A stretch of DNA of 64,000 nucleotides from Minisyncoccota bacterium (GTDB lineage Bacteria; Patescibacteriota; Minisyncoccia; Phycocordibacterales; XYD1-FULL-46-19): NCBI GenBank assembly GCA_041649495.1, contig JBAZMZ010000002.1, positions 18,793 to 82,792 of the forward strand. The letters are read 5' to 3'. Under the pieces are notes generated by a model. The model had not been told where the DNA came from. It did no database searches and saw only the letters and a program-made list of their open reading frames with translations. The number at the start of each line of letters is the position of its first letter. Position 1 is the first letter of the stretch. The position numbers were made by a program, and so were the translations under genes. Shown one piece after another: positions 3,181-55,433 of this stretch.

Positions 3181-3305
3181 ATTTTCTATTTCACGTTTCT
3201 CTTGGTTCATTGTCAGATGAGCCATTTTTTGATATTCTAAAAGAACAATTGAATATGGTGGCCTAAACCTACGCTTTTTAACTAAGGCTGGGCATGGCTC
3301 AAAGT

Positions 3306-3450
3306 CCCATCCCTGACACTGAACCCCGCGTTCAGCAACTCAGGGATGGGCCGTGCACCGAAAGGTGTATGGGGTCGTAAGACCTAGCTAGCGCGGGGCT
3401 TAGTGTTTCTCGCAAACCCTAACACTGCCCCAGTCAGTGTTTTTATTTTC
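3306..3450 (+). promoter_or_regulatory. structured 5' leader: pseudoknotted hairpin, GAAA-tetraloop hairpin and intrinsic terminator just before the start codon
   Basis: 11-bp stem cccatccctga (3306-3316) / tcagggatggg (3340-3350) with 23-nt loop. Loop segment ccccgcg (3324-3330) is complementary to cgcgggg (3392-3398). gcacc-GAAA-ggtgt hairpin at 3355-3368. Terminator aacactg-ccccagt-cagtgtt plus T-run at 3421-3450. An alternative pairing agtgtt (3402-3407) / aacact (3421-3426) could act as antiterminator. Confidence 0.45.
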
Positions 3451-9181: not shown

Positions 9182-9907
9182 CTATTTGTCTCCTCTGAGC
9201 GTAAATCTCGCTCGATACCCATTCTTCTTGGTGTAGTGAGGGATCGGATTTTCTTTCATGCCAAAGAATTCCTTGAGCCGTTCGTTCAGATCGTACTTAA
9301 CGTTCCTGCTGAATCGCCTGTTCCACTTCTCGTTGGTCAACGCACCGCCGTTATCGGCCATTTCCCTGAGCAACTCCCACTTGCGGTCGGGACGGTTCGT
9401 CTTCGTGTTGATGAAGCCCATGTCTTTGAAGTCGAATTTCTTTGACTTCATTTTTGGGTACGATACTTTGACGAAATGTCCATCGATAAACTGGATGCCG
9501 AGTGATTCCCATGTCGCGTTTTGTGGAAGAAGGTACGAAGCAATTACGTATTCGCTTGTGTGCTTTGCCGAGGCGACGGCAATATCTTCAGGGTTTACAA
9601 TCCGTACCTCCTGAACCGGTCGTGTTAATGTAGGCATGAAATAGCTATCCTCCCCACCAAGAGTTTCAGGATATTTTGGCATTGTTATCTGTGATATTGA
9701 TGGGATAGACATTCTTGCCACAGCTTCCATTTGAGGTCTTACGGATTCAATAACTGAGCTTATGTTCTTGAGGGGTTCCCTCATATGTTCAAAAACTTTT
9801 TGGTACTCCTCCACCGCATTATTCAATGGCGAAATAAGCCCTTCTGCAAAAGTGGGGTTGTATCCGTTTTCTACTGCTTGCTTATATATCGATTCGCCAA
9901 CTGTCAT
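9182..9907 (-). CDS. hypothetical protein (241 aa)
   Basis: ORF with a terminator downstream; no recognisable motif. Confidence 0.5.
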   Translation of the reverse strand: MTVGESIYKQAVENGYNPTFAEGLISPLNNAVEEYQKVFEHMREPLKNISSVIESVRPQMEAVARMSIPSISQITMPKYPETLGGEDSYFMPTLTRPVQEVRIVNPEDIAVASAKHTSEYVIASYLLPQNATWESLGIQFIDGHFVKVSYPKMKSKKFDFKDMGFINTKTNRPDRKWELLREMADNGGALTNEKWNRRFSRNVKYDLNERLKEFFGMKENPIPHYTKKNGYRARFTLRGDK

Positions 9908-10498
9908 GTTTTCATTATATCAGAAATTGGCATTTGTTGGTATTTGAGACCATGACCCGAATGCCTAGTTTTGCCTAGTCAAAACGTGCTAGAATACCCT
10001 TATGTGGTCTAACCTTACTAGCACTTAACCCGAGTGTCCCGCCAATTAGAGCTAGCTCGAGATGCCTAGTTTGGGATAGTTTTTGTAATTGTTATTTTTG
10101 AAATTAGTGATAGTATGAGACCACTAGCTCTTAAGAGGTACCAGGACTTTGTTCCTGAAACGATCTTCTATCTTGCATTGGTCGTTCGATCTAGATGAGT
10201 TAGTCAAATTGTAGCTGGTTAATTGCAAGAGCTGTCCGTTAAGGACGCCCTTACAGTGGCCAAGTCGGTGTTTCGACCATAGGTTGAGCACCACCAAGAA
10301 TAGGAACTGAATCATAATTAATTTCATATTAGTATGGTTGATTGTGATTATCATTATTATTCTACCGACGTTGTTAGTTGACCCTAGCTTAGAAATAAGC
10401 AGGACGGCGAATGCAAGTTAGCTTTATAGTTATAATGACCTCTTCCTAGTATCGAACCATGTCAACGGTTTGCAGGAAGAGGTCTTTGCGTTTTTTGT

Positions 10499-11587
10499 AT
10501 GCTATATCAAGAATGGAAAAATCAAATCGGTCTCGAGAAAAAGGTTAGAAACTATCAACACATTGATGGCCGTCTTGATTTAAATAATGAGTTAAACTTT
10601 CTTAGGGTGGTTGACGTCCTTAAAAATATTAAGGGTCATCAGTTTTTACCTTTTATAAAAAAAGATAAAACGGAGATAAGATTTCGTAGAAGTAAAAACA
10701 ATCCAAAGGGAAGAGCCCAAAGAACCAAGAAAGTAAGGCCGATAATGTATGTCTCGCACATAGATGCCCACATTTACAGTTATTACAACTTTGCTCTCAT
10801 GGATAGATATGAACAATATTTAAACGAGATTGGATTGAGCGAAAATGTTATTGCTTATCGGAAAATAGAGATTGCTGGAACCCAAAAGGGTAAGAGTAAT
10901 ATTAATTTTGCCGGAGAGGTTTTTGATTACATAAAAACAAAAGATGAATGCGTGGTTATTACCCATGACATTGAACATTTCTTTGATGAAATAAATCATA
11001 AATTATTGAAAGATAATATCTGCAAAATACAGGGGATTGAAAAATTAGACGAGTCTTTTTACAAAGTATTTAGGTCCCTAACTGCTTACAAATATATTAC
11101 CCATGAAGATTTTTTGAATAAAAAGATCAAGAGAAAGTTGTCTCATGGTAAATATGCAATTTATCAAACTCTAAAAGGCATTGTAGAGGAAAATAGAACA
11201 AATATGGGAATTCCTCAGGGTAGTCCTATTAGTGGCCTACTTGCCAATATTTATTTAGTCAACTTTGATTCTGACATAAAAAAGCTTTTTCCTGATGTAT
11301 TTTATCGTCGATATAGTGACGATCTTGTTTTTGTCTGCAACAAGCTCCAAAAAGATGACCTACTAAAATTCGTAGATAAAAAAATCAAAGAATCCTTACT
11401 GAAGATTAATTCCAAAAAGTCCTTCGTATCTTATTTAAAGAGGGGCGAAAAAGGTATGGTTTGTGAAAAGGTAACAAATGGTTTAGGAGAAAAGCTTGGC
11501 CGAGATTATGTAGATTATCTAGGCTTTGAATTTAGTGGCAATAATATTTTTCTGAGAAAAAACACGATTCAAAAATTAAAGCATTGA
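10499..11587 (+). CDS. reverse transcriptase, stand-alone and unclassified (not the DGR RT); possibly truncated by an in-frame TGA
   Basis: RT motifs GIPQGSPISGLLANIYL and YRRYSDDLVFVC (YxDD), then ..YLGFEF. The ORF ends about 12 aa after motif 7 with no thumb domain and no maturase or endonuclease domains. Confidence 0.85.
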   Translation: MLYQEWKNQIGLEKKVRNYQHIDGRLDLNNELNFLRVVDVLKNIKGHQFLPFIKKDKTEIRFRRSKNNPKGRAQRTKKVRPIMYVSHIDAHIYSYYNFALMDRYEQYLNEIGLSENVIAYRKIEIAGTQKGKSNINFAGEVFDYIKTKDECVVITHDIEHFFDEINHKLLKDNICKIQGIEKLDESFYKVFRSLTAYKYITHEDFLNKKIKRKLSHGKYAIYQTLKGIVEENRTNMGIPQGSPISGLLANIYLVNFDSDIKKLFPDVFYRRYSDDLVFVCNKLQKDDLLKFVDKKIKESLLKINSKKSFVSYLKRGEKGMVCEKVTNGLGEKLGRDYVDYLGFEFSGNNIFLRKNTIQKLKH

Positions 11588-11590
11588 CAA

Positions 11591-11797
11591 ATGGAAAAGA
11601 CTAAAAAACAGTTGTCTAACACCCAACACCAGAAAAGAAGAAAGCTTAAAAAAATCAGAAGAAGGAATAAGGGTAAAACAAACTATTTTGAGAGAACACT
11701 TAAAATAATAAATAATCTCGGGATAAAGAAACAAATATTAAAAGTTACAAAGAAGAGGAATAGTATTAAAAGAGGGATTTTACCACCTCATCCTTAA
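11591..11797 (+). other. basic 68-aa ORF in the same frame as the RT, one codon past its TGA stop; possible displaced thumb/C-terminal tail
   Basis: Frame identity (10499 and 11591 are congruent mod 3). Very basic sequence (KRRKLKKIRRRNKGK..). The RT lacks a thumb-like segment. Confidence 0.35.
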
Positions 11798-13113
11798 ATG
11801 GCAGTTATAATTTTTTGTTTCAAGATAATTTTACTCTTTAGGCATGTCAGCAATTCTCTCTTTTCAATATTTGTCCCATCTCTCAAAATAAACTTGGCAT
11901 AATTTTTGATATCAATTTCGCCGACTTCAATTTTGTCTTTTAATCCAAGGATGACTCTTTGGAATTTCTTGAAACGCTCAACTTCGGTTTTGATTTTTTC
12001 CTTGATACTGATTTCGTTTAGATCTATTTTGTCGAGGAGCAGTTCGAATTGTTTAATCAAATCTTTTTCTTCAATATATCCGCATTTACAGTGGGCATCT
12101 TTGGCCTTAGTACAGCCATAATATACGTAACGATGAACATTGCCATTTTGCTGTTTCTTGAATTTCTCGTCAGCACAAATACCTGATCCGCATAAACCGC
12201 AAGTCATTAATTTGGTAAAAGCGAATTCCTGATTTTCGACTCTTAAAACATTGCTCTTAAGTTGAGCATGGGTTTGATCGAATAATTCTCGAGTGATAAT
12301 TGGCTCGTGTTTGCCTTGATACCAATTTCCACTATTTTTCGGATATTCAAAGGCCCCGTAATAAAAGGGGTTATAGAGAATACGAAAGATATTGCCTAGA
12401 CTTAAATGCTTTTTGCCTGCCGACGTTCTGAAATTTAATTCAAACCGTAACCACATATAAAGTTTCTTTCCACTCCATTTATCATAAGCCACTTTCTCAA
12501 ACACTTGTTTAATAACTGGTGCCCGTTCTGGATCAATAATTGCTTGGCACTTTCGATCCGATCTTTTTTCATTGAGATAGCCCGTCGGTGGAACTCCCGG
12601 TCTTAAACCCATTTCGCACCTAGTCCTTAGGCCACGTTTTACATTAACGCTCTTGTTGTCATTTTCGAGTTTGGCTTGAGAACATAAGATCATTAACAGG
12701 AATTTTTCATTTGGTGAATTTATAAATGTCTGGCCATAAGTTCTGATTTGCAGAAGCAATTTTTGATCCATTAAATCAACAACTGAACCAAGATCGCCAG
12801 CGTTTCTTGAAAGTCTGTCAGGTGCCCAAGTCAAAATTCCATTGAACCGACCCTGCCTAATATCCTCGAGTAATTCCTTAAAAATTGGCCGTTGTCCCGA
12901 GTCCTTAGCTGAATGAGCCTCACGTCTAATATCGACAATTTCTAAATTATCCCTTTCGGCCAATTGGAGCATCTCTTTGACTTGCGAATCGATCGACAAG
13001 ATTTGGCGCTCTTCTGATTCGGTCGACTTGCGTGCATATAGGACATACTTAATCGGCGTTGGTGGGGCAACGATTGATCTATCCATTATTTGACTATCCA
13101 GCTCTATTTTCAT
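11794..13113 (-). CDS. large serine recombinase
   Basis: N-terminal resolvase catalytic domain (YARKSTESEERQ..SIDSQ), recombinase domain, and Cys-rich zinc-ribbon region (CGLCGS..YYGC..CKC). Confidence 0.9.
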   Translation of the reverse strand: MKIELDSQIMDRSIVAPPTPIKYVLYARKSTESEERQILSIDSQVKEMLQLAERDNLEIVDIRREAHSAKDSGQRPIFKELLEDIRQGRFNGILTWAPDRLSRNAGDLGSVVDLMDQKLLLQIRTYGQTFINSPNEKFLLMILCSQAKLENDNKSVNVKRGLRTRCEMGLRPGVPPTGYLNEKRSDRKCQAIIDPERAPVIKQVFEKVAYDKWSGKKLYMWLRFELNFRTSAGKKHLSLGNIFRILYNPFYYGAFEYPKNSGNWYQGKHEPIITRELFDQTHAQLKSNVLRVENQEFAFTKLMTCGLCGSGICADEKFKKQQNGNVHRYVYYGCTKAKDAHCKCGYIEEKDLIKQFELLLDKIDLNEISIKEKIKTEVERFKKFQRVILGLKDKIEVGEIDIKNYAKFILRDGTNIEKRELLTCLKSKIILKQKIITAI

Positions 13114-13302
13114 CGTCGTCCATTAATGACAGACCAGAAAACCTTGTAAAGTCTATGCAGAATTGCCCGTTTATTACATAATCGTGGGCTAGCTTTACAA
13201 AAAATACTGTCTGCGATAGGGTTGGACGGATACAATTTTTGTTGTATTATTATCTTTGACAATACCTAAACCAAACTTTGCGTTTGGCATGGTAAATATA
13301 GG

Positions 13303-13468
13303 AAATCCCACGCGAGTAGAAACGGCCACATAAGCCGGCACTTACTCGCGTGGGTCCTCACCCGAAAGGGAGAGGGATAGTTCCGAAAGGAGCTATCGTC
13401 GGTCTTGTGTGGCCATTTGTGTCCCACAAAAATTATTAGCAATTATTATTAAATCCCACGCGAGGTAT
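13303..13468 (+). promoter_or_regulatory. structured 5' leader: pseudoknotted hairpin, two GAAA-tetraloop hairpins, and a triplicated segment allowing alternative pairing over the start region
   Basis: 12-bp stem cccacgcgagta (13307-13318) / tactcgcgtggg (13343-13354) with 24-nt loop. Loop segment ggccaca (13324-13330) is complementary to tgtggcc (13408-13414). GAAA hairpins at 13356-13375 and 13375-13396. aaatcccacgcgag occurs at 13303-13316 and again at 13451-13464, 4 nt before the ATG at 13469. Confidence 0.45.
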
Positions 13469-15062: not shown

Positions 15063-16115
15063 TTATTGTTCACAAAACCAAAATTCATTTCTAATCTTTT
15101 CACTTTGCTTATGAGTATTGGCATGGGATAAAACACCAAGATAAGAGTTAATTGTACCCTTGTAGCAATTGGGAGAGATCAACCCATTTTCATAATTTTT
15201 CTTGGACAGATCTATCTTTCGCCACATTCGCCGCTCGCTTCTTTTTCGCAAACGGCGGTGATAGGGTAAAAGCACGTAGCCAAGGAAATCGGTACCTTGG
15301 AATATTTTACCAATTCCCACCTTTTCCGGATGCAAAGACAGTCCCAGCTCCGTTTTTAAAAATTTAACCATTGGTTTAATTAAGCCGAGCAAATAATCAA
15401 TATTGTCTGATACAACAATAAAATCATCAGTGTATCGAACATAATTTTTAACCCTTAGCTCATGCTTCACGAATTGGTCAAACTCATTCATGTATACGTT
15501 GGCAAAGAGCTGGGAAGTGAGGTTGCCAATCGGGACACCGCGACGATTAAACAAATCTGAATATTCGCTCAAAAAACTTTCAATAATTTCTTCCAAAAGC
15601 CATATGGCGTTTTGGTCCGAGATCCTCCTTTTAATAATCGAAAGAAGAAACGAGTGATTAATGGTATCGAAGAATTTTTTAACGTCGCATTTTAAGGCAA
15701 AGCCGGGACGCGAATAATTATGGCTGACTTGCTGTTGCATTTGCTCCAAAACCGCCACGCCCTTGTGCGTGCCTTTGCCAAAACGGCAAGAAAAAGAACG
15801 CGGAATAAAAGTTGGTCCAAACACCCAATTCAACACTCGAAAAATAGCATGGTGTAAAACGCGATCACGGACCGTCGCCTTATGGATATGTCGCCGTTTG
15901 GGATCGTAAATATAGAAACTGCTATATGGACCATGCTTGTAAGTTCGGCTGGTTAAATCTCGGTGCAATTGAAAGATATTTTGTTCCAGATTCTTTTCGA
16001 AAGCCAATACGTCCGGCTTTTTCTGTTTGCCCCGCTTAAATTCTTCCCACGCCTGAAATAGGTTCTCCAAATTAACAATCTGATCAAATAAATTATTGTA
16101 AACCCTCATAACCAA
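15063..16115 (-). CDS. diversity-generating retroelement reverse transcriptase
   Basis: Close motif-by-motif resemblance to the Bordetella phage bRT: NLFQAWEEFKRGK, HGPYSSF, GKGTHKGV, IGNLTSQLFANVY, RYTDDFIVV, FLGYVL, SHANTH. Confidence 0.9.
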   Translation of the reverse strand: MVMRVYNNLFDQIVNLENLFQAWEEFKRGKQKKPDVLAFEKNLEQNIFQLHRDLTSRTYKHGPYSSFYIYDPKRRHIHKATVRDRVLHHAIFRVLNWVFGPTFIPRSFSCRFGKGTHKGVAVLEQMQQQVSHNYSRPGFALKCDVKKFFDTINHSFLLSIIKRRISDQNAIWLLEEIIESFLSEYSDLFNRRGVPIGNLTSQLFANVYMNEFDQFVKHELRVKNYVRYTDDFIVVSDNIDYLLGLIKPMVKFLKTELGLSLHPEKVGIGKIFQGTDFLGYVLLPYHRRLRKRSERRMWRKIDLSKKNYENGLISPNCYKGTINSYLGVLSHANTHKQSEKIRNEFWFCEQ

Positions 16116-16123
16116 ATAAAAAT

Positions 16124-16477
16124 ATGAATGATAATGATATTCCGATCCTTAAAAAAGCCTACGATCTTTACAAGACCTTTCACGATTATCGCCGAGTGAT
16201 TCCCAAGTGTGACCGCTTCACCATCTTTGAGCGGAGCGAAAATCTGATTTTGCAGATTATCGAACTTTTCCTTGAAGCTGGTTATTCGCAACATGGTAAC
16301 AAAGCGGTGTCGCTGGAAACGGCCAGTACAAAATTAAACCTGCTTCGTTTCCTTATTCGCTTAATGAAAGAAACAAAGAGCTTTGACACCAAGAAATATG
16401 TGGCGGTCCAAGCGATCATCGACGAAATCGGTCGTATGTTAGGTGGCTGGCTCCGTTCGACCAGTCCAACTCGTTAA
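16124..16477 (+). CDS. avd: DGR accessory variability determinant (Avd), on the strand opposite the RT
   Basis: 117-aa helical protein alignable with bAvd (KAYDLYKTFHDYRRVI ~ KCYDQMLIVERYERVI; LLRFLIRLM ~ MLRFWLRFL; IGRMLGGWL ~ VGRILGSWI). Confidence 0.8.
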   Translation: MNDNDIPILKKAYDLYKTFHDYRRVIPKCDRFTIFERSENLILQIIELFLEAGYSQHGNKAVSLETASTKLNLLRFLIRLMKETKSFDTKKYVAVQAIIDEIGRMLGGWLRSTSPTR

Positions 16478-16530
16478 ACTTAAAGAGGTAGCCAAAAAAG
16501 ATTGACTACCTCTTTAATGAGAAGGAGAGA

Positions 16531-16675
16531 CTTCGGGGAAACCATCGGAGGGAACACCGACGCCGAGCCATAGTTGTCGTTGGTATCGTCGACATCGTTC
16601 GTGTCGAACTTGACCTTGTCGCCGTTGAACTTGAAGTAGGGCGCCTTCGAGAAGTCGCCATCGCCATCCGGAGAT
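16531..16675 (-). repeat. DGR template repeat (TR)
   Basis: About 145 bp similar to 17098-17241. Most mismatches fall where this copy has A on the minus strand. The 16480-16773 ORF is its translation artefact. Confidence 0.75.
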
Positions 16676-16980
16676 TTGTTTTTGCCCATCCGTGGCACCA
16701 GAACTCTAAAATGACTCTTGTCGGCAACAAGACACCTTATCGCTCTTGAATTTAATCTGGCAACACCCGCCATATAGGCTTAGTGGTTTACCTTGAACAA
16801 AAACAAGCAGTTTCTCCTCACCACGGCACACTCTTGCAAACAATAGTCGGCAAAACTCTGGCCATTTCTCGTGAGAGAAAGAGTTGGGCGACGGTCATCA
16901 ATAGACGGCCGTACATTAGCTTAGACTCGTTTATAAGTATATCAAATATGTTTTTTATGTAAACGAAAATCAGGGTCACC

Positions 16981-17011
16981 CACACACCTCTGCCCAAGGC
17001 AGACAGGTGTG
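16981..17011 (-). repeat. GC-rich hairpin just downstream of the VR/target gene
   Basis: cacacctctgcc-caa-ggcagacaggtgtg imperfect inverted repeat about 80 bp 3' of the VR (on the minus strand), where DGR homing-enhancing hairpins are described. Confidence 0.5.
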
Positions 17012-17090
17012 GATAACCCTGAAAAAATTGCCGCGAAATCAAAAATCAAGAGAAAGAAATCAAAAGATTCAAGACTTCGAGAGCCGAGGA

Positions 17091-17981
17091 TCACTGTTGC
17101 GGGGAAACCACCGGAGGGAACACCGACGCCGAGCCAGAGTCGTCGCTGGTATCGACGACAACGAGCGTGCCGAACCAGACCTCGTCGTCGTCGAACCCGA
17201 AGCACGGGGACTCCGAGAAGTCGCCACCGCCGCCCGGATTGAATTCGTCGCCCGCGCAGTCGATCCAGAGATCGTCCACGTTTTCGAGGCGTTCCGGATG
17301 GGTCAGGAGCATGATGCCGATTTCGAAAGCTCCCAGACCACACTCACCGCCAAACATGACGACACGTGCCCGACGGACGGACTTGTCACGGTGGCGCAGA
17401 CCGAATTGGGCCGCGATGACGAGCAGGTTGTGTCCGCTTTGCATTTTACTGAGTTCGAGGAAGAATTCCTCCTTCTTGGCGTGCTGGCGCAGGTGTGCTT
17501 CGTCGATCTGGCCGTCGCGGTAGTTGTAAAGCGAACCGCGAACTTCCTTGATCTTGTCGAGCACCACCTGGACCGCTTCGGGGTAGGTCTTGGCGATCAA
17601 CCGCCAGTCCGGAATCAAGAAGCGACCTTCAGCGTTCGGCGGAAGCGCTTCGCCTTCGATCGTGGTGTCGAACGTGGTCTGGGCGAGTTCGGGGAACAGT
17701 TCCTTCAAGCGCGAGGCCTGTTCGGCGAGCGGCTTCGGCTGGCTGTAGCCCGAGAGGTACCCATATTGCGACTCGACTTCTTCGTCGGCGAACTGGTCGG
17801 GGTTCGTGAGCTGTTCGATCAGCACTTTCAAACCCTTCTGGAATTCGCCACCGTTCTCGTTGAGTCTCTGTGCCCGTTCTTCGTCTAAACCCAACTTGTT
17901 GTAGGTTGCACGAAAGAGGTCTACCGCTTGACGTCCCTTGGGATCGTCGGCCGTGATCAATGCTGTCTGTGGCATCGTCAT
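17091..17981 (-). CDS. DGR target (variable) protein; VR at the 3' end (about 17098-17241)
   Basis: The C-terminal roughly 48 codons match the TR with adenine-specific differences. The GC-rich IMH-like end ggctcggcgtcggtgttccctccggtggtttcccc lies at the VR 3' end. Whole-gene GC is well above the genome background. Confidence 0.75.
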   Translation of the reverse strand: MTMPQTALITADDPKGRQAVDLFRATYNKLGLDEERAQRLNENGGEFQKGLKVLIEQLTNPDQFADEEVESQYGYLSGYSQPKPLAEQASRLKELFPELAQTTFDTTIEGEALPPNAEGRFLIPDWRLIAKTYPEAVQVVLDKIKEVRGSLYNYRDGQIDEAHLRQHAKKEEFFLELSKMQSGHNLLVIAAQFGLRHRDKSVRRARVVMFGGECGLGAFEIGIMLLTHPERLENVDDLWIDCAGDEFNPGGGGDFSESPCFGFDDDEVWFGTLVVVDTSDDSGSASVFPPVVSPQQ

Positions 17982-18884: not shown

Positions 18885-20345
18885 TCAAAAGAAAAAAATC
18901 CTTTGGCCACCCGGTCGTTCTTCCATAACACTTAGCACCATGATTGAAAAGGCATCGGCTAGATCGTCGTGCTTTTCCACTCCGAAATTAATAATTTGAT
19001 TAAGGAGTTCTTCACAATTATCCCTTGGAAAGAGGATTTTGCCAGACTTTATCCAGTGAGCTGTCATAACGAGACGACTTCGTTTGTCGCCACAAGGACG
19101 AGATGTCATGATGTTGTAGATGTTTTCGGCTTCAAGTTGTTGTGGCAACGCTCGTTGGTAAGCGACGTCTTCGAAGACAAACTCCGGGATCGTATCATCA
19201 GCGTAATATGACTTGTAAATTGATTTACAAAGTTCGACCGTCTCTGGGAAGGTAATTTTTTTATTAACAATTTTGGGCAAGATATAAATTCGTAGTCCAT
19301 TATCATCTTCGTATGCACAGCCGATCACCATTGCCGTATAATCAGCTGAGTCTTTTTGTGAGATTGCTAAATCCACCCCAATTCGGATACCAAGATAACA
19401 GGAGTATCCGTAGCGTTTTTTCTTCTTTGAGGGTAGTTCGTCGTAATAGTGAATCCAGTCTCGGTGGATGGCCTGCTCTTCAGATGGGACGATGCGAAGC
19501 AGGTATTCTCGTTGCCAGGCATACTCGTTGGCCGATCGCCTTTTCTCTGTCTCAATATCCTCCATTGTCGGATATTTCCCCGGCCAAAGAATTTGGCCGT
19601 TTTGGACTAATGGATATTGTTTAAATACGCCATCTAGTTTTCCGGTCTCAATATTTTCTTTAATCCGCATTAAGAGTGAATCTTCGTGCAGAAGATTACC
19701 AACGATGACAATTCTGGTATCTCGATCACCAGCCGGGACCACCTCAGCTGTTAGCCACTGATATGTTTTATTGCGACTTTCGCGAGTTTTAGTTGAAGAG
19801 AGATCCTCTACGTCGTCACCGATTATTAGATCAGGACGATGTTGGTTGTGTCTTAAACCTCTGATACTTTGCTCGCTTGAGGCAACGGTAATACGAGCAT
19901 TTGAATTGGAGAAAACCAGTGACGAAGTTCCCCATTCATTGGATTCTTCGTTGAATGGTCCGAGGTCGTTTTTCAACACCGTGTTTTCTTCTAACTCTCG
20001 GCGAAGATTCATCATGTGCTGTTTAGCCTGAGCTTGAGTTTGACAGAGAATGAGAACAAATTTTTTCTGTTGTCTACCGAGAATAGCCCAGAGCGGATAG
20101 GAAGTGGTGATAATAGTTGATTTACCACAACCACGAAAAGCAACGACAAAGAAGTTCTTCACCGATTCGTCTTCTGTTAAGCCGATAATTTCTCGCTGGA
20201 AAGTGGCCGTCTGGTATTTAATGTAATGGGCGAAATAAAAATGAAAGAAATACCAGTGACTTTCCTTGGTAATGGAAATTCTAACTTTCTGGTCGCGGAT
20301 CATCGTTTCCGCTAGATCCACTGGGATCACATTTTTCGTTGTCAT
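18885..20345 (-). CDS. phage terminase large subunit
   Basis: Walker A FRGCGKST near the N-terminus, ATPase then RNaseH-like nuclease half with acidic residues (DDLADAF). Size about 486 aa. Confidence 0.85.
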   Translation of the reverse strand: MTTKNVIPVDLAETMIRDQKVRISITKESHWYFFHFYFAHYIKYQTATFQREIIGLTEDESVKNFFVVAFRGCGKSTIITTSYPLWAILGRQQKKFVLILCQTQAQAKQHMMNLRRELEENTVLKNDLGPFNEESNEWGTSSLVFSNSNARITVASSEQSIRGLRHNQHRPDLIIGDDVEDLSSTKTRESRNKTYQWLTAEVVPAGDRDTRIVIVGNLLHEDSLLMRIKENIETGKLDGVFKQYPLVQNGQILWPGKYPTMEDIETEKRRSANEYAWQREYLLRIVPSEEQAIHRDWIHYYDELPSKKKKRYGYSCYLGIRIGVDLAISQKDSADYTAMVIGCAYEDDNGLRIYILPKIVNKKITFPETVELCKSIYKSYYADDTIPEFVFEDVAYQRALPQQLEAENIYNIMTSRPCGDKRSRLVMTAHWIKSGKILFPRDNCEELLNQIINFGVEKHDDLADAFSIMVLSVMEERPGGQRIFFF

Positions 20346-23895: not shown

Positions 23896-24492
23896 ATGGC
23901 AAGAAAAGTATTTTATAGTTTCCATTTTGAGCGAGATTCCCAAAGGGCGGCACAGGTTAGGAATAGCCATTCCCTTGCCGACGAAGACGAATATGGCGTA
24001 GTCGATTCTGTCGAGTGGGAGAAAATTGAACGCCAAGGAAAACAGGCTGTTGAAAATTGGATAAAAGATCAATTGAAATATACCTCGGTTACAGTTGTTC
24101 TTATCGGAGCAGAAACGGCTGACCGAGAGTGGGTTCAGTATGAAATCCGGCAAAGTTGGGATCGTGGTAACGGGTTAGTTGGCGTTAGTATACATAATGT
24201 GAAAAATTTAGATGGAAAGACAGATACCGCCGGTCCAAATCCATTTGAGCGTGTATTGTTAGCGGATGGTTCGCCTGTTTCATCAATTTGTAAAATTTAT
24301 GACTGGGTTACAGAAGACGGTATTGGCAATTTGGGTAAATGGGTTGAAGAGGCCTTCCAGACAAGGGTTAGTTATAAAGGAGAAAAAAATCTTAAGGCTA
24401 ACCATTTGGAAAAAACTAGCACCGATAACTCCTCAAGGTTATCTAGTGGTCCTGTGACTTTGAACAATCCTCCTCAGCCATGGACACCATAG
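23896..24492 (+). CDS. TIR-like domain protein (DUF1863 / ThsB-like)
   Basis: N-terminal RKVFYSFHFERD, later SVTVVLIGAETADREWVQYEI and GLVGVSIHNVKN match the bacterial TIR-like (MTH538/DUF1863) pattern. Confidence 0.5.
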   Translation: MARKVFYSFHFERDSQRAAQVRNSHSLADEDEYGVVDSVEWEKIERQGKQAVENWIKDQLKYTSVTVVLIGAETADREWVQYEIRQSWDRGNGLVGVSIHNVKNLDGKTDTAGPNPFERVLLADGSPVSSICKIYDWVTEDGIGNLGKWVEEAFQTRVSYKGEKNLKANHLEKTSTDNSSRLSSGPVTLNNPPQPWTP

Positions 24493-48483: not shown

Positions 48484-49064
48484 ACAATTCTCTCTACCCC
48501 TTCTTTAAACAAATTTTGTTGAATACGCTTTCGGCTTGGGGGATTAATTTATCAGCCATCGATGAGCGGTTAACCCACTGGCTGGCGATTTATTGGTATG
48601 TAGCCATTTTCCTGTCAGCCATCTTTTTTGCCGGGATAATTTATTTTATTAATAAGATTATCGAAATTCGTCGTTGGGAAAGTGAGCGAGTTTATGGTCA
48701 GTCCGGCCTGATCACTGAGCTTAAAGAAAATTTGGCGGTTGTCCCGCCAGTGAAGAATCAAGATTGGAAAAAAATTATGAAGTTAATTGGCTCGGATAAT
48801 CCTAACGATTGGCAAAAAGCAATTATTGATGCCGATAAAATGTTAGAAATTGTGGTCGACACTTTTTCCGTCCCCGGTGACAATATTGGCGACAAATTAA
48901 AAAACATTGAACGAAGCGATTTTAACACGTTGGATGAGGCTTGGCAGGCGCATAAAATTCGTAATCGGATTGCGCACGAACATAATTTCCATTTGAGTCA
49001 ACGTGACGCGCGTTTGACCATTGATAATTTCGAAAAAGTCTTTCGCGAATTTGACTTTATTTAA
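48471..49064 (+). CDS. hypothetical membrane protein
   Basis: ORF with an N-terminal TM segment; no motif. Confidence 0.45.
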   Translation: MSNVDNSLYPFFKQILLNTLSAWGINLSAIDERLTHWLAIYWYVAIFLSAIFFAGIIYFINKIIEIRRWESERVYGQSGLITELKENLAVVPPVKNQDWKKIMKLIGSDNPNDWQKAIIDADKMLEIVVDTFSVPGDNIGDKLKNIERSDFNTLDEAWQAHKIRNRIAHEHNFHLSQRDARLTIDNFEKVFREFDFI

Positions 49065-50655
49065 GGTAATAGTATAATAAGAGCGCGGGGTAGAGTAACG
49101 GTAATTCGCAAGGCTCATAACCTTGAGACGCCGGTTCGAATCCGGCCTCCGCAACATGTCCAGACGGCATCGTCTGAAAATCCTCATTTAGCTTGAAGAT
49201 ACAAGACAAAATCGCGGTTCCAAATGTCCCAGTGGTTTTTTGATAGGTGATGCCTTGACTTAGAACCATTTTTTGGAACCTCACCTTTTGCGCGGATTCC
49301 ATTAACCACCACTGATTAGCAGTGTCAGCAATTAGCTGGTTCGTTCCAGTGATGGCCTCCTCGAGATCAAGTTCTTCAATTTCGGCCTCGTTTCTTGAGA
49401 CCCGAAGACTAGCCATTTGATTATCAAGTGAGTCTTTTAACTCTCGATATTCATCTTTGGAGATTTCTTGTTCAACTCTCATCCCCAGTAGCTCCCGCTT
49501 CTTTTTTTCAAGTTTTGAGATCTCCTGTTGATAAAAATCTTTCTCTTGTTGAGCTGTCGAATGTCTTGTTTGATAGACCTCAATAACCGTTTGTTTAAAT
49601 AGGGCCAAGAATTCCTCGGACGGGGTGACTTTTTGGAGAAAATTATAGAATTCACCCTCCAGAACATCTCTAGCGATACCCCGATTACAATGAACGCAGG
49701 CTGGATTGTAGCAATTATAGTAGGCGTATTTTTTACCCCGGCCCGTGTTCCAAGAGCCCGTTAGCCCACGATGGCATTCGCAAGAGACAAAACGTCGGAG
49801 AGGGAAGTCGGGGTTATCAGAGGCTCTTGGCCGGGTGGCCCCACTTGATTTTTGGGTTTTGACCATTTGAATTTTTTGGTATTCATCAATCGTGATCATC
49901 GGTTGGTGTTGCCCTCGGTGTTCTTCTTTTGTCCAAGGATTGACTAAAATTCCGGCGTAGAATTTATTGACCAAAATAATCTCCCAAAGTTGCTTTCGCA
50001 TCAGTTTCCCCGTTCTTGTTCTTAATCCCCAGCTATTACTTTCTTCAGCCAATCGAGTGATTGTGTGGTTTCCCTTGAGATAAAGTCTTAAGCCTTTCTG
50101 GATTAGATAAAAACGCTTGTCGTCGGGAATGTCTGGTAGATTTTTCCGACGATCGGTTCGCAACTTTGAATTTGTGTAGCCAATCGGAGGCGACCAACAC
50201 CAGATACCCTCTCTCAATTTCGCTTTCATTCCGCCGGTGCAACGTTGTTTTCTGACTTCATTCTCGAACTCGGCATAGCCCGCCAAAAAGGTTTCCATTA
50301 ATTTGCCGATATGATCTTGCGTAATTGGCTCAGTTACCGATTGGAGTGTGATGCCGTATTGGGTTAATTTAGCACGCACCGCAAAGTGGTCGGTAGTGTT
50401 GCGGGCGAAGCGGTCAATTTTCCAAACAATAAAATAATCAAGATCTTCTTTGTTTAAGCGGCAGAATTCAAGCGCTTTTAAAAATTCAGTCCGATTGGTG
50501 GCGGTGGCCGACTCTCCTCGTTCTACAAAAACCTTAACCACTTCAATATTATTTTTGGTGGCATAATCAAGACAGGCCCGTTCTTGAGAATCAAGGCTAG
50601 TCCCTTGAACCTGCTCGTTTGATGATACTCGACAATAGATGATTCCTTTTTTCAT
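49057..50655 (-). CDS. large serine recombinase (second copy), tRNA-adjacent
   Basis: N-terminal IYCRVSSNEQ...SLDSQ resolvase domain, recombinase domain, Cys-rich zinc ribbon. The 3' end of the ORF runs antisense across the tRNA-Met gene (tail ..AGFEPAS..). Confidence 0.85.
   Translation of the reverse strand: MKKGIIYCRVSSNEQVQGTSLDSQERACLDYATKNNIEVVKVFVERGESATATNRTEFLKALEFCRLNKEDLDYFIVWKIDRFARNTTDHFAVRAKLTQYGITLQSVTEPITQDHIGKLMETFLAGYAEFENEVRKQRCTGGMKAKLREGIWCWSPPIGYTNSKLRTDRRKNLPDIPDDKRFYLIQKGLRLYLKGNHTITRLAEESNSWGLRTRTGKLMRKQLWEIILVNKFYAGILVNPWTKEEHRGQHQPMITIDEYQKIQMVKTQKSSGATRPRASDNPDFPLRRFVSCECHRGLTGSWNTGRGKKYAYYNCYNPACVHCNRGIARDVLEGEFYNFLQKVTPSEEFLALFKQTVIEVYQTRHSTAQQEKDFYQQEISKLEKKKRELLGMRVEQEISKDEYRELKDSLDNQMASLRVSRNEAEIEELDLEEAITGTNQLIADTANQWWLMESAQKVRFQKMVLSQGITYQKTTGTFGTAILSCIFKLNEDFQTMPSGHVAEAGFEPASQGYEPCELPLLYPALLLYYYLK
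49084..49154 (+). tRNA. tRNA-Met (CAT anticodon), initiator-like
   Basis: Hand-folded cloverleaf: acceptor cgcgggg/ctccgca with C1:A72 mismatch, D-stem gagt/attc with A11:U24, anticodon arm caagg-ctCATaa-ccttg, T-arm gccgg-ttcgaat-ccggc, discriminator A. CCA not encoded. Confidence 0.85.
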
Positions 50656-55188: not shown

Positions 55189-55333
55189 ATTTATAAGATA
55201 ATAATATAACTTTTAGGACCAAGATTAAAGGGTTAGACAGCTTTATTTTTAATTGGTTTGGTGCTACTCTATACTTAACAACTAAATAAGGAGACCTAAC
55301 CCAATAATCTCGATTGTTGGCATGGTCAAAAAG

Positions 55334-55433
55334 CCACTGCTGGCTACTAAACCCGTCGTTTAGGAGCGCCAGCAGTGGTTACCACCCGAAAGGATGGTAG
55401 GTGGCCTCGGCCATCGCCTAGCGACGGGTTTAG
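55334..55433 (+). promoter_or_regulatory. structured 5' leader: pseudoknotted hairpin plus GAAA-tetraloop hairpin (third copy of the architecture)
   Basis: 11-bp stem ccactgctggc (55334-55344) / gccagcagtgg (55368-55378) with 23-nt loop. Loop segment ctaaacccgtcg (55347-55358) is complementary to cgacgggtttag (55422-55433). ttaccaccc-GAAA-ggatggtag hairpin at 55380-55403. Confidence 0.45.

What the first reader, a model, noticed from the sequence alone, without database searches (positions are those of the whole stretch)
10499..11797. Stand-alone RT with an in-frame TGA followed, in the same frame, by a basic thumb-like tail
The 362-aa RT has motifs 1-7 but stops 12 aa after ..YLGFEF, so it has no thumb. 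One codon after the TGA, in the same frame, an ATG opens a 68-aa extremely basic ORF (KRRKLKKIRRRNKGK..) of the kind that forms RT thumb or RNA-binding tails. This could be a recent nonsense mutation, programmed readthrough, or a deliberately split RT.

There are no intron RNA domains and no maturase or endonuclease domain, and it is not DGR-type. The gene converges on a large serine recombinase and is preceded by a 590-nt ORF-free structured region. That context resembles defence-associated or Abi-type RT modules rather than a group II intron.
Basis: partly seen in the sequence, partly recalled or inferred. Interest (0 to 1): 0.7.

Follow-up and report, generated by a model that had tools for sequence, protein, structure and literature searches.

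The report
DRT2 defence RT with premature stop
This is a known type of anti-phage system (DRT2: a reverse transcriptase plus a non-coding RNA that templates a hidden toxic 'neo' gene) in a Paceibacterota genome; its RNA part is intact, but a strain-specific stop codon cuts the enzyme's RNA-binding thumb off into a separate small reading frame.

Summary
A 362-aa RT ORF (10499-11587) ends in TGA. One codon later, in the same frame, a 68-aa basic ORF (11591-11797) starts.

The RT is a DRT2 (UG2) defence reverse transcriptase: PADLOC Drt2 E=1.5e-100, solved KpnDRT2 structure E=6e-43. The 68-aa ORF is the rest of its thumb. Nearly all of the 120 listed homologues are continuous proteins of about 420-450 aa. 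All 11 relatives whose DNA was read have Lys (AAA/AAG) at the TGA position. The stop lies inside the first thumb helix. It appears in seven contigs from six samples, but these all belong to one near-clonal population. It is therefore a real, lineage-specific nonsense mutation and not a conserved split or recoding signal.

The "ORF-free structured region" upstream is the DRT2 ncRNA (about 10122-10498). It has covarying helices and two pseudoknot-type helices. A 159-nt template lies between short direct repeats. The antisense frame stays stop-free when the template is circularised. A TTGCAA-N17-TAGAAT promoter forms only across the repeat junction. Twelve related loci share all of this, with units of 138-162 nt, all multiples of 3.

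Best reading: an otherwise intact DRT2/neo system with a recently inactivated or strongly attenuated RT. Leaky UGA-C readthrough, or reinitiation at the AUG 3 nt downstream, is not excluded.

The parts
10107..10117 (+). Promoter of the ncRNA/RT transcript: extended -10-like element GTGATAGTATG (consensus TGnTATAAT in relatives)
   Evidence: Conserved at A3 columns 73-83 in 12 loci; coordinates. The transcription start is inferred, not shown.
10122..10498 (+). DRT2 non-coding RNA (about 375 nt): 5' domain, template, pseudoknotted 3' scaffold and U-rich 3' tail that ends at the RT start codon
   Evidence: Conserved in 12 loci. RNAalifold gives 59 pairs, 26 with compensatory changes. MFE z-score -5.83. 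No Rfam family matches.
10123..10204 (+). 5' domain closed by helix P1 (ACTAGCTC 10123-10130 pairs with GAGTTAGT 10197-10204); the counterpart of the KpnDRT2 '5' handle'
   Evidence: P1 is 95.8% paired, and 4 of 8 pairs have compensatory changes.
10172..10179 (+). 5' strand (CTTGCATT) of a long-range helix with AATGCAAG at 10410-10417; it closes the template into a loop
   Evidence: Found as inverted repeat I1. It is 93.8% paired in 12 loci, and 3 pairs have compensatory changes. The window's own T>C / A>G pair is one of them.
10209..10212 (+). 5' copy of the template-flanking direct repeat (TTGT; GT anchor at 10211-10212), the analogue of ACA-1
   Evidence: Relatives have longer copies: GTTATAAGC twice in L007, GTAATGAGC twice in L167.
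10211..10369 (+). Template region, 159 nt (53 codons); its reverse complement is one neo repeat unit
   Evidence: The anchor-to-anchor distance is a multiple of 3 in 12 of 12 loci (141-162 nt) plus L010 (138 nt). The circularised antisense frame 0 has no stops in all 12, while other frames have 6-24 stops per 3 units, with one exception (antisense frame 2 of L167).
10124..10354 (-). Linear antisense ORF (76 aa) that contains the neo proto-gene. Neo unit: VGRIIMIITINHTNMKLIMIQFLFLVVLNLWSKHRLGHCKGVLNGQLLQLTSY. The conserved in-frame ATG is at 10315-10313.
10223..10228 (-). [quoted passage not shown]
   Evidence: All 13 loci have TTGCAn or TTGACn at this position.
10359..10364 (-). [quoted passage not shown] It lies 17 nt from the -35 only after head-to-tail joining of units.
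   Evidence: In linear DNA the two hexamers are in the wrong order and about 130 nt apart.
10370..10374 (+). 3' copy of the flanking direct repeat (GTTGT), the analogue of ACA-2
10377..10466 (+). Pseudoknot: GTTGAC (10377-10382) pairs with GTCAAC (10461-10466) in the loop of the terminal hairpin. Hairpins at 10383-10403 and 10419-10432 lie between the two strands.
   Evidence: The pseudoknot helix is 100% paired in 12 loci, with compensatory changes at 2 pairs in 4 sequences. The whole 3' scaffold is 98% paired with 12 covarying pairs, reached by 0 of 500 shuffles.
10437..10498 (+). Terminal 10-bp hairpin (GACCTCTTCC...GGAAGAGGTC) with an inner 5-bp stem, then the conserved TTTGCGTTTTTTGT tail
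   Evidence: Its role as the ncRNA 3' end and primer is inferred by analogy with KpnDRT2 (PMC12039810).
10499..11587 (+). DRT2 reverse transcriptase, N-terminal 362 aa (fingers, palm with YSDD at 11312-11323, first 9 residues of the thumb), ending in TGA
   Evidence: PADLOC Drt2 E=1.5e-100. NCBIfam Drt2 E=6.7e-92. PDB 9c0i KpnDRT2 E=5.9e-43. 1784 homologues.
11585..11587 (+). Premature TGA, followed by C (UGA-C). It replaces a Lys codon (AAA/AAG) of all 11 relatives read.
11591..11797 (+). Remainder of the DRT2 thumb (68 aa) as a separate in-frame ORF. The ATG lies 3 nt after the stop.
   Evidence: (the repaired protein aligns to Drt2 profile positions 4-405 of 416).
11794..13113 (-). Large serine recombinase, convergent, overlapping the tail ORF by 4 nt. 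This is mobile-island context and not part of DRT2.
   Evidence: The same kind of recombinase sits next to DRT2 in L169, L171, L172 and L174.

Best explanation
The locus is a DRT2 (UG2) anti-phage system in a mobile, prophage-like island of a Paceibacterota (CPR) chromosome.

How DRT2 works (inferred from KpnDRT2): the RT binds the ncRNA encoded just upstream. It copies a template loop over and over, jumping between short flanking repeats. This makes concatemeric cDNA. Once double-stranded, the cDNA carries a promoter across each repeat junction and a stop-less 'neo' ORF. The Neo product arrests the infected cell.

In this window every RNA-side element of that mechanism is present and intact. 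The template is 159 nt, giving a 53-codon unit. The junction promoter is TTGCAA-N17-TAGAAT. Two pseudoknot-type helices are present.

The RT gene, however, carries a lineage-specific nonsense mutation (Lys codon to TGA) nine residues into the first thumb helix. The last 68 residues are therefore left in a separate in-frame ORF. These residues belong to the elongated thumb that grips the ncRNA 3' scaffold in KpnDRT2.

The most likely reading is a recent loss-of-function, or at best a strongly attenuated allele, that has not yet decayed further. It is not a programmed readthrough signal or a designed two-piece enzyme.

Shown here: family identity, the position and reality of the stop, continuity in relatives, and the RNA architecture. 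Inferred: cDNA synthesis, Neo toxicity, and the loss of activity.
For: Family:
- Drt2 is by far the best profile: PADLOC 335.6 bits against 86 for the next family. It is also the NCBIfam best hit.
- KpnDRT2 structures match at E about 1e-43.

Stop codon:
- The TGA is in frame and aligns to K in 25 of the 27 aligned homologues (R in P0036, S in P0048). It aligns to AAA/AAG in 11 of 11 DNA loci.
- Most of the 120 listed homologues are continuous proteins of 420-450 aa.
- The tail keeps the invariant thumb residues.
- In the AF2 model of the closest intact relative (pLDDT 90.7), the equivalent residue K360 sits inside helix 351-374.
- In KpnDRT2 the thumb holds the ncRNA tower, buttress and pseudoknot, and disrupting those RNA elements abolishes ccDNA and defence (PMC12039810).

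Standard genetic code:
- Long ORFs have no internal TGA, and TGA ends 4 of 38 reliable genes.
- The only tRNA in the window is tRNA-Met.
- There is no RNA structure at the stop (z=+0.57).

Recent origin:
- Neither the RT nor the ncRNA is an outlier at conserved columns.
- All seven contigs are at least 99.65% identical.

Decay is seen elsewhere in the clade: truncated P0092 and P0093, and a thumb relic behind an unrelated gene (L175).

ncRNA and neo.
Against: - Nothing else in the system has decayed. The 68-codon Lys-rich tail has no further stop or frameshift. The neo frame, promoter halves, jump repeats and all helices are intact. This fits continued selection as well as very recent origin, and the population is too clonal to tell the two apart.
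- UGA followed by C is, from my own knowledge of E. coli (Poole, Brown & Tate 1995), the weakest termination context.
- The AUG 3 nt after the stop lies within the distance range where termination-reinitiation works in E. coli (PMC10666635).
- The genome initiates mostly without Shine-Dalgarno sequences, on A/T-rich leaders like the one before this AUG. Both a trace of full-length RT and a separate thumb peptide are therefore plausible.
- The allele persisted in six samples, and the TGA is shared by two alleles that differ by F313L.
- The change from AAA/AAG to TGA needs two substitutions. A TAA-to-TGA step towards a leakier stop cannot be excluded.
Confidence: 0.62

Rival explanations
1. Leaky stop: the UGA-C is read through at a low rate, most likely by near-cognate tRNA-Trp. 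The cell makes mostly truncated protein plus a little full-length RT. This is a naturally throttled but working DRT2, and possibly one selected to limit the cost of a system that builds a toxic gene.
For: - The downstream frame is fully intact and conserved.
- There is no decay in the RT or the ncRNA.
- The stop is TGA followed by C.
- TGA is the rarest stop in this genome, ending 4 of 38 genes.
- The allele is stable across six samples.
Against: - The stop is not conserved in any relative.
- No stimulatory structure follows it.
- No suppressor tRNA was found.
- The intactness carries no statistical weight, because the population is near-clonal.
- Programmed readthrough is rare in bacteria (own knowledge).
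Confidence: 0.15
2. Two-piece RT: ribosomes that terminate at TGA reinitiate at the AUG 3 nt downstream, or initiate there independently. The 362-aa core and the 68-aa thumb are made as separate chains and assemble on the ncRNA.
For: - The stop-to-start distance of +3 nt is within the range where termination-reinitiation remains efficient (PMC10666635).
- The genome is Shine-Dalgarno-poor, and the AUG has an A/T-rich leader like genuine starts.
- The thumb fragment keeps all conserved residues.
Against: - The break is inside the first thumb helix and not at a domain boundary.
- The Met codon is ancestral in some relatives (L009, L169), so it is not a new adaptation.
- No other lineage has a split. 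The only other free-standing tail is a deletion relic.
- No split RT of this kind is known (own knowledge).
Confidence: 0.12
3. TGA is a sense codon here, through genetic code 4 or 25, selenocysteine, or a phage- or host-encoded suppressor. The gene would then be a normal continuous DRT2.
For: - Some Patescibacteria (Gracilibacteria, Absconditabacteria) read UGA as Gly (own knowledge).
- The frame continues perfectly after the TGA.
Against: - Reliable genes in the 64-kb window have no internal TGA, and four of them end in TGA.
- The aligned residue is Lys/Arg, not Gly, Trp or Cys.
- There is no tRNA with a UCA anticodon in the window.
- No SECIS-like structure is present.
- The MAGs are assigned to Paceibacterota, which use code 11 (own knowledge).
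Confidence: 0.02
4. The RT belongs to another retroelement (group II intron, retron, Abi or DGR), and the upstream antisense ORF is an ordinary small gene and not neo.
For: - Weak secondary hits to group II RT/maturase (85.8 bits), Drt3a and retron RTs.
- In-frame indels alone would also be expected for an ordinary gene.
- There is no third-position excess of substitutions in the neo frame (0.42/0.39/0.43).
Against: - The Drt2 score is 4 times that of any other family.
- No intron or retron RNA was found.
- The DGR RT is a different gene at 15063-16115.
- The antisense frame has no conserved stop position.
- Its -10 and -35 elements reach a 17-nt spacing only across the repeat junction, in 13 of 13 loci.
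- The template is flanked by direct repeats that co-vary between loci.
Confidence: 0.03

Closest known systems
Klebsiella pneumoniae DRT2 (KpnDRT2): RT plus ncRNA that makes concatemeric cDNA encoding Neo (Tang et al. 2024, bioRxiv 10.1101/2024.05.08.593200; Wilkinson et al. 2024, PMC12039810; PDB 9c0i and related entries)
   Same: - The RT is homologous over residues 16-358 (E=5.9e-43).
- The ncRNA lies immediately upstream on the same strand.
- The order is a 5' hairpin domain, then a template loop, then a pseudoknotted 3' scaffold.
- The template is flanked by short direct repeats.
- The unit length is a multiple of 3.
- The stop-free ORF is on the antisense strand.
- The -35 and -10 elements sit at opposite ends of the unit and join across the junction.
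   Different: - RT identity is only about 30-35%, and the whole clade scores below the NCBIfam Drt2 equivalog cut-off (312-316 against 390 bits).
- The ncRNA is about 375 nt, against 280 nt in Kpn.
- The unit is 138-162 nt, against 120 nt.
- The flanking repeats are GT-anchored and up to 9 nt long, instead of ACA.
- No extra junction base is needed to keep the frame and the 17-nt spacer.
- An additional long-range helix ties the 5' domain to the scaffold.
- A covariance model of this scaffold finds no match in 76 other DRT2 loci.
- In this strain the thumb is cut off by a TGA.
Intact DRT2 homologues of Patescibacteria/CPR MAGs (for example P0002, P0012, P0018; Nomurabacteria L007; Paceibacteria L009)
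   Same: 57-69% identical RT among the 16 closest aligned relatives, the same ncRNA architecture and neo design, and frequent adjacency to a large serine recombinase.
   Different: They encode one continuous protein of 422-446 aa with Lys where the window has TGA.
Group II intron RT/maturase
   Same: Shared RT fingers and palm, including an RT0-like insertion; weak profile match (85.8-92 bits).
   Different: The score is far below the 300-bit cut-off. No intron RNA domains were found. There is no maturase X or endonuclease domain.
Telomerase and DRT10-type repeat-adding RTs (PMC12632851)
   Same: The concept is shared: an RT bound to an RNA with a template lying between a stem and a pseudoknot, adding tandem repeats.
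   Different: The template here is about 150 nt and codes for a protein. No protein priming or SLATT effector was seen. The relation is by analogy only.

Membership tests
DRT2 (UG2) defence system | The RT sequence belongs to the Drt2 family | tested here: met
   PADLOC Drt2 PDLC03757 E=1.5e-100, with the next family (RT_UG17) at 5e-25. PDB KpnDRT2 E=5.9e-43.
DRT2 (UG2) defence system | Score above the NCBIfam NF041746 Drt2 equivalog cut-off (390 bits) | tested here: not met
   308.8 bits as found, 312.3 bits with the stop repaired, and 316.4 bits for the intact relative P0002. The whole CPR clade is a divergent DRT2 branch, so the shortfall is not caused by the stop.
DRT2 (UG2) defence system | Catalytic YxDD and RT motifs intact | tested here: met
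   YSDD at residues 272-275. The invariant columns of 28 homologues are kept.
DRT2 (UG2) defence system | A single polypeptide carrying the elongated ncRNA-binding thumb | tested here: not met
   The TGA at 11585-11587 splits off the last 68 residues. The break is inside the first thumb helix.
DRT2 (UG2) defence system | A structured ncRNA directly upstream of the RT on the same strand | tested here: met
   Conserved in 12 loci, with 26 compensatory pairs. MFE z-score -5.83.
DRT2 (UG2) defence system | A pseudoknotted scaffold 3' of the template | tested here: met
   GTTGAC/GTCAAC pseudoknot is 100% paired with covariation. The scaffold is 98% paired, reached by 0 of 500 shuffles.
DRT2 (UG2) defence system | A template bracketed by matching short motifs for template jumping (ACA-1/ACA-2 in Kpn) | tested here: inconclusive
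   Direct repeats are present at both template ends in all loci. They are GT-anchored, 2-9 nt long, and co-vary in L007 and L167. They are not ACA, and the actual jump point was not observed.
DRT2 (UG2) defence system | A repeat unit that is a multiple of 3, with a stop-free antisense frame across the junction (neo) | tested here: met
   All 13 loci have units of 138-162 nt, all multiples of 3. Frame 0 is stop-free in the 12 aligned loci and in L010. The per-locus chance of that frame being stop-free is 0.014-0.11.
DRT2 (UG2) defence system | A sigma-70-type promoter reconstituted only across the repeat junction | tested here: met
   TTGCAA, 12 nt, junction, 5 nt, TAGAAT, giving a 17-nt spacer. 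The same geometry holds in 13 of 13 loci.
DRT2 (UG2) defence system | Concatemeric cDNA synthesis, Neo toxicity and phage defence | not testable with these tools
   These need experiments or raw-read searches for the junction sequence.
Group II intron RT | RT/maturase profile above cut-off, plus intron RNA domains V/VI flanking the ORF | tested here: not met
   TIGR04416 scores 85.8-92 bits against a cut-off of 300. Rfam finds nothing in 9900-11900, even at E<=1.
Retron | Retron RT profile plus msr/msd RNA | tested here: not met
   Best retron profiles score 45-53 bits against a cut-off of 235. There is no retron RNA family hit.
Recoded UGA (code 4 or 25, or selenocysteine) | In-frame TGAs in many genes, or a SECIS element, or a UCA-anticodon tRNA | tested here: not met

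The most novel reading that the evidence does not exclude
The UGA may act as a gate and not be a dead end. In that reading the RT is made either at trace level by UGA-C readthrough, or as a core plus a separately translated thumb through reinitiation 3 nt downstream. Either route would give a naturally throttled DRT2.

A more extreme version: full-length RT would appear only when an invader supplies UGA-suppressing activity, such as a phage that recodes TGA. The premature stop would then work as an infection sensor.

None of this is supported positively. It is only not excluded, because the downstream thumb ORF, the ncRNA and neo are all intact.
Probability: 0.2. Interest if true: 0.65.

Novelty: new member of a known kind. 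Interest (0 to 1): 0.36.

Why it matters
Three points give the locus modest value.

- It shows that the DRT2/neo mechanism can be read directly from sequence in a divergent clade of ultra-small CPR bacteria. Tang et al. reported that Neo annotation was difficult in divergent clades. Here the geometry is explicit: 138-162-nt units, GT-anchored jump repeats, and a junction promoter with an exact 17-nt spacer.
- It gives a precise, testable prediction: a 159-bp ladder and one specific junction sequence.
- It provides a natural thumb-truncation allele of a system that builds a toxic gene. This could show how such systems are switched off or attenuated in the wild.

It does not reveal a new kind of element. 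The 'split RT' that made the finding attractive is most probably an ordinary nonsense mutation.

Tried and rejected
- **Word-indexed search with the 68-aa tail.** It returned only the tail itself. Sensitivity was too low for this low-complexity query, so the result is uninformative.
- **Full HMMER scan of 1.84 billion representatives with the tail.** One other short protein turned up (P0123, 74 aa). Its 592-nt contig shows a thumb relic directly behind a DUF7020 gene. That is a deletion remnant and not a split RT.
- **Covariance model of the 3' scaffold (R1).** It matched only the window and L010 among 78 sources. Sequence-level homology of the ncRNA to non-CPR DRT2 ncRNAs could therefore not be shown.
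- **Codon-position test on neo.** There is no third-position excess (0.42/0.39/0.43). The test is inconclusive, presumably because the same bases also serve RNA structure and the promoter.
- **Metagenome scan for relatives.** It returned only distant DRT2s of 35% identity or less. Close relatives had to be fetched one by one.
- **Viral contigs.** No close relative and no junction sequence were found.
- **Population genetics of the tail.** This was not possible. All seven contigs are at least 99.65% identical, and the only variable sites in the DRT2 locus are F313L and an assembly gap.
- **Promoter/terminator scan.** It flags neither the ncRNA promoter nor the terminal hairpin.
- **Readings rejected.** Alternative genetic code, selenocysteine, sequencing error, group II intron, retron and DGR RT. 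The reasons are given under the rival explanations and the membership tests.
Full report
**1. The observation**

The sequence is as described. An ATG at 10499 opens a 362-codon ORF ending ...YLGFEFSGNNIFLRKNTIQKLKH-TGA, with the TGA at 11585-11587. CAA follows, and an ATG at 11591 opens a 68-codon ORF in the same frame, ending at 11797. The tail is 35% Lys+Arg.

Two details need correcting. The stop is 17 residues after YLGFEF, not 12. The 591-nt gap upstream also contains a 76-aa antisense ORF (10124..10354).

The convergent gene is a large serine recombinase.

The TGA is not an assembly artefact. The identical arrangement occurs on seven contigs from six independent samples. These include the NCBI MAG proteins MFA5000759.1 and MFA5000760.1, from 'Candidatus Paceibacterota bacterium'. 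All of these contigs are at least 99.65% identical to the window over several kb. They are therefore one near-clonal population and not independent evolutionary replicates.

**2. What the protein is**

The RT is a DRT2 (UG2) defence reverse transcriptase.
- PADLOC Drt2 scores E=1.5e-100 (335.6 bits), and the next family scores 86 bits.
- NCBIfam Drt2 is the best hit at E=6.7e-92, against profile positions 4-335 of 416.
- The solved K. pneumoniae DRT2 structures (9c0i and others) match at E=5.9e-43 over residues 16-358.

Group II intron, retron and Drt3 profiles score far below their cut-offs. Rfam finds no intron or retron RNA.

Of 1784 homologues, most of the 120 best listed are single proteins of 420-450 aa. 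The closest are 57-69% identical and come from Patescibacteria/CPR MAGs.

**3. What the tail is**

Joined across the stop, the window protein aligns end to end with these homologues. The tail covers their C-terminus, including the invariant Y396 and Q412. With the stop repaired, the match to the Drt2 profile extends to position 405 of 416.

The window reads KLKH*QMEK where relatives read KLK[HYR]KQ. The aligned residue is Lys in 25 of the 27 aligned homologues (Arg once, Ser once). The codon is AAA or AAG in all 11 loci whose DNA I read. TGA therefore needs two substitutions, through either AGA or TAA. The Met after the stop is ancestral in some relatives (L009, L169) and so is not a new start codon.

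An AlphaFold model of the closest intact relative (P0002, pLDDT 90.7) gives this thumb layout:
- helix 351-374;
- a disordered basic linker;
- helices 394-401 and 405-425.

The stop corresponds to K360, which lies inside the first helix.

In KpnDRT2 the elongated thumb holds the ncRNA's tower, buttress and pseudoknot. Disrupting those contacts abolishes cDNA synthesis and defence (PMC12039810).

**4. Is TGA a stop here?**

Yes.
- Long ORFs across the 64-kb window have no internal TGA.
- Of 38 reliable genes, 22 end in TAA, 12 in TAG and 4 in TGA.
- The only tRNA in the window is tRNA-Met.
- The 120 nt around the stop are unstructured (z=+0.57).
- The replaced residue is Lys, not Gly, Trp or Cys.

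**5. The upstream region is the DRT2 ncRNA, and it is intact**

Twelve loci (the window plus L007-L009, L167-L174) share a conserved region of about 375 nt. It runs from an extended -10-like element to the RT start codon. RNAalifold predicts 59 pairs, 26 of them with compensatory changes. The window RNA folds with z=-5.83.

I identified these elements:
- A 5' domain closed by helix P1 (10123-10130 with 10197-10204).
- A long-range helix, CTTGCATT (10172-10179) with AATGCAAG (10410-10417). It ties the 5' domain to the 3' scaffold and covaries, including in the window itself.
- A 3' scaffold of hairpins with a pseudoknot, GTTGAC (10377-10382) with GTCAAC (10461-10466). The pseudoknot is 100% paired with covariation. 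The scaffold as a whole is 98% paired with 12 covarying pairs, a value reached by 0 of 500 shuffles.

Between the 5' domain and the scaffold lies the least conserved stretch. It is flanked by a direct repeat:
- GTTATAAGC twice in L007;
- GTAATGAGC twice in L167;
- TTGT twice in the window.

The distances between the two copies are 159, 147, 150, 147, 147, 141, 141, 147, 147, 150, 147 and 162 nt, and 138 nt in L010. All are multiples of three.

When the unit is circularised, the antisense frame 0 has no stop in all 12 loci. The other frames carry 6-24 stops per three units, apart from antisense frame 2 of L167, which is also stop-free. Shuffles give that frame a chance of 0.014-0.11 per locus of being stop-free.

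Each unit ends with TTGCAn or TTGACn plus 12 nt, and starts with 5 nt plus TAtAAT. A -35/-10 pair with a 17-nt spacer therefore exists only across a head-to-tail junction. This holds in 13 of 13 loci. In the window the pair is TTGCAA-N17-TAGAAT. A conserved in-frame ATG follows.

This is the design shown experimentally for KpnDRT2: template jumping between flanking motifs, units that are multiples of 3, a junction promoter, and a stop-less neo ORF on the antisense strand. One caveat applies. In-frame indels alone would also fit an ordinary antisense gene, and there is no third-codon-position signal. The junction promoter, the flanking repeats and the lack of a conserved stop are what argue for neo.

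**6. Differences from the characterised system**

- The clade scores below NCBIfam's Drt2 equivalog cut-off even when intact (312-316 against 390 bits).
- The ncRNA is longer, about 375 nt against 280 nt.
- The unit is 138-162 nt, against 120 nt.
- The jump motifs are GT-anchored repeats of up to 9 nt, not ACA.
- No extra junction base is needed.
- A covariance model of the scaffold recognises only CPR-clade loci, and Rfam has no matching family.

Tang et al. noted that Neo annotation was hard in divergent DRT2 clades. In this clade it is clean.

**7. What the stop means**

Against a designed split or programmed recoding:
- It is unique to this strain.
- It interrupts a helix.
- There is no recoding signal.
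- The only other free-standing tail (P0123) is a deletion relic behind a DUF7020 gene.
- Other truncated alleles (P0092, P0093) break at different places.

Against long-standing pseudogenisation:
- The RT deviates from conserved columns no more than intact relatives do. It has 1 deviation at columns at least 90% conserved among all 28 sequences and 5 within the closest 17, against 0-22 for the others.
- The same holds for the ncRNA: 12 deviations against 4-39.
- The Lys-rich tail has gained no second stop.

Because the population is clonal, this intactness has no statistical weight either way.

Residual expression is plausible:
- UGA followed by C is the weakest bacterial termination context (own knowledge, Poole et al. 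1995).
- The AUG is 3 nt from the stop, a distance at which termination-reinitiation still works in E. coli (PMC10666635).
- The genome uses almost no Shine-Dalgarno sequences (5 of 40 genes), and the AUG has the A/T-rich leader typical of its real starts.

I therefore rate the readings as follows:
- about 0.62: a recent nonsense mutation giving a null or strongly attenuated RT;
- about 0.15: functional leaky readthrough;
- about 0.12: a working two-piece enzyme.

**8. Context**

The locus sits in a mobile, prophage-like island of roughly 3.3-25 kb. The island holds:
- a T5orf172 gene, three DNA methylases and a ParB-methylase;
- the serine recombinase and an SNase;
- a complete DGR;
- a terminase-like gene and a ThsB-TIR protein.

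The island lies next to housekeeping genes: a type IV pilus cluster, LigA and GatA. Serine recombinases flank DRT2 in four related loci. No close relative was found on IMG/VR viral contigs.

**9. Verdict**

The finding is real and now explained. It is a DRT2/neo defence system of a divergent CPR clade whose RT carries a strain-specific premature stop in the thumb. It is a new member of a known kind and of moderate interest. Its main value lies in the cleanly readable neo design and in the natural thumb-truncation allele, both of which can be tested directly.

Noticed in passing
window 15063-17981: A complete diversity-generating retroelement lies 3.3 kb from DRT2. It has an RT (15063-16115, minus strand), a bAvd (16124-16477, plus strand), and a 139-nt TR/VR-like direct repeat at 16534-16672 and 17100-17238 (83% identity). 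The second copy sits at the 3' end of ORF 17091-17981 (minus strand). In the allele on contig L004, all 27 SNPs cluster inside the DGR RT gene (15596-15804).
   Followed up: partly
window 3260-3385, 13263-13397, 55293-55415 (all + strand): Three copies of the LOOT RNA motif (RF03000, 69-86 bits). One lies just beyond the start of the serine recombinase, and the other two lie just upstream of downstream + strand ORFs. A link to mobile-element borders or to 5' UTRs is possible.
   Followed up: no
window 49057-50655 and 49084-49155: A second serine recombinase (Resolvase domain, 532 aa, minus strand). Its 3' end overlaps a tRNA-Met gene on the other strand. This suggests a second integrated element at a tRNA.
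   Followed up: no
window 9961-10080: Upstream of the ncRNA promoter there is a repeated motif, ATGCCTAGTTT (9961-9979 and 10062-10080). An extended -10-like TGCTAGAAT lies at 9988-9996. This could be a second promoter or an operator. It is not conserved in the related loci aligned.
   Followed up: no
window 18885-20345, 23896-24492: A terminase-like gene (Terminase_6C) and a ThsB-like TIR protein lie in the same island. The DRT2 therefore sits in a prophage-like defence island.
   Followed up: partly
L175 1-592: In a related lineage, only the last ~65 codons of a Drt2 thumb survive. They are fused directly behind a DUF7020 gene. This is a relic of a deleted DRT2.
   Followed up: yes
whole window: The genome is almost free of Shine-Dalgarno motifs (5 of 40 gene starts). 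Start codons are preceded by A/T-rich leaders. TGA is the rarest stop, ending 4 of 38 genes.
   Followed up: yes
L169, L171, L172, L174: In four related CPR loci a large serine recombinase lies directly upstream of the ncRNA-RT unit and is divergent from it. This DRT2 clade appears to travel with serine-recombinase elements.
   Followed up: partly
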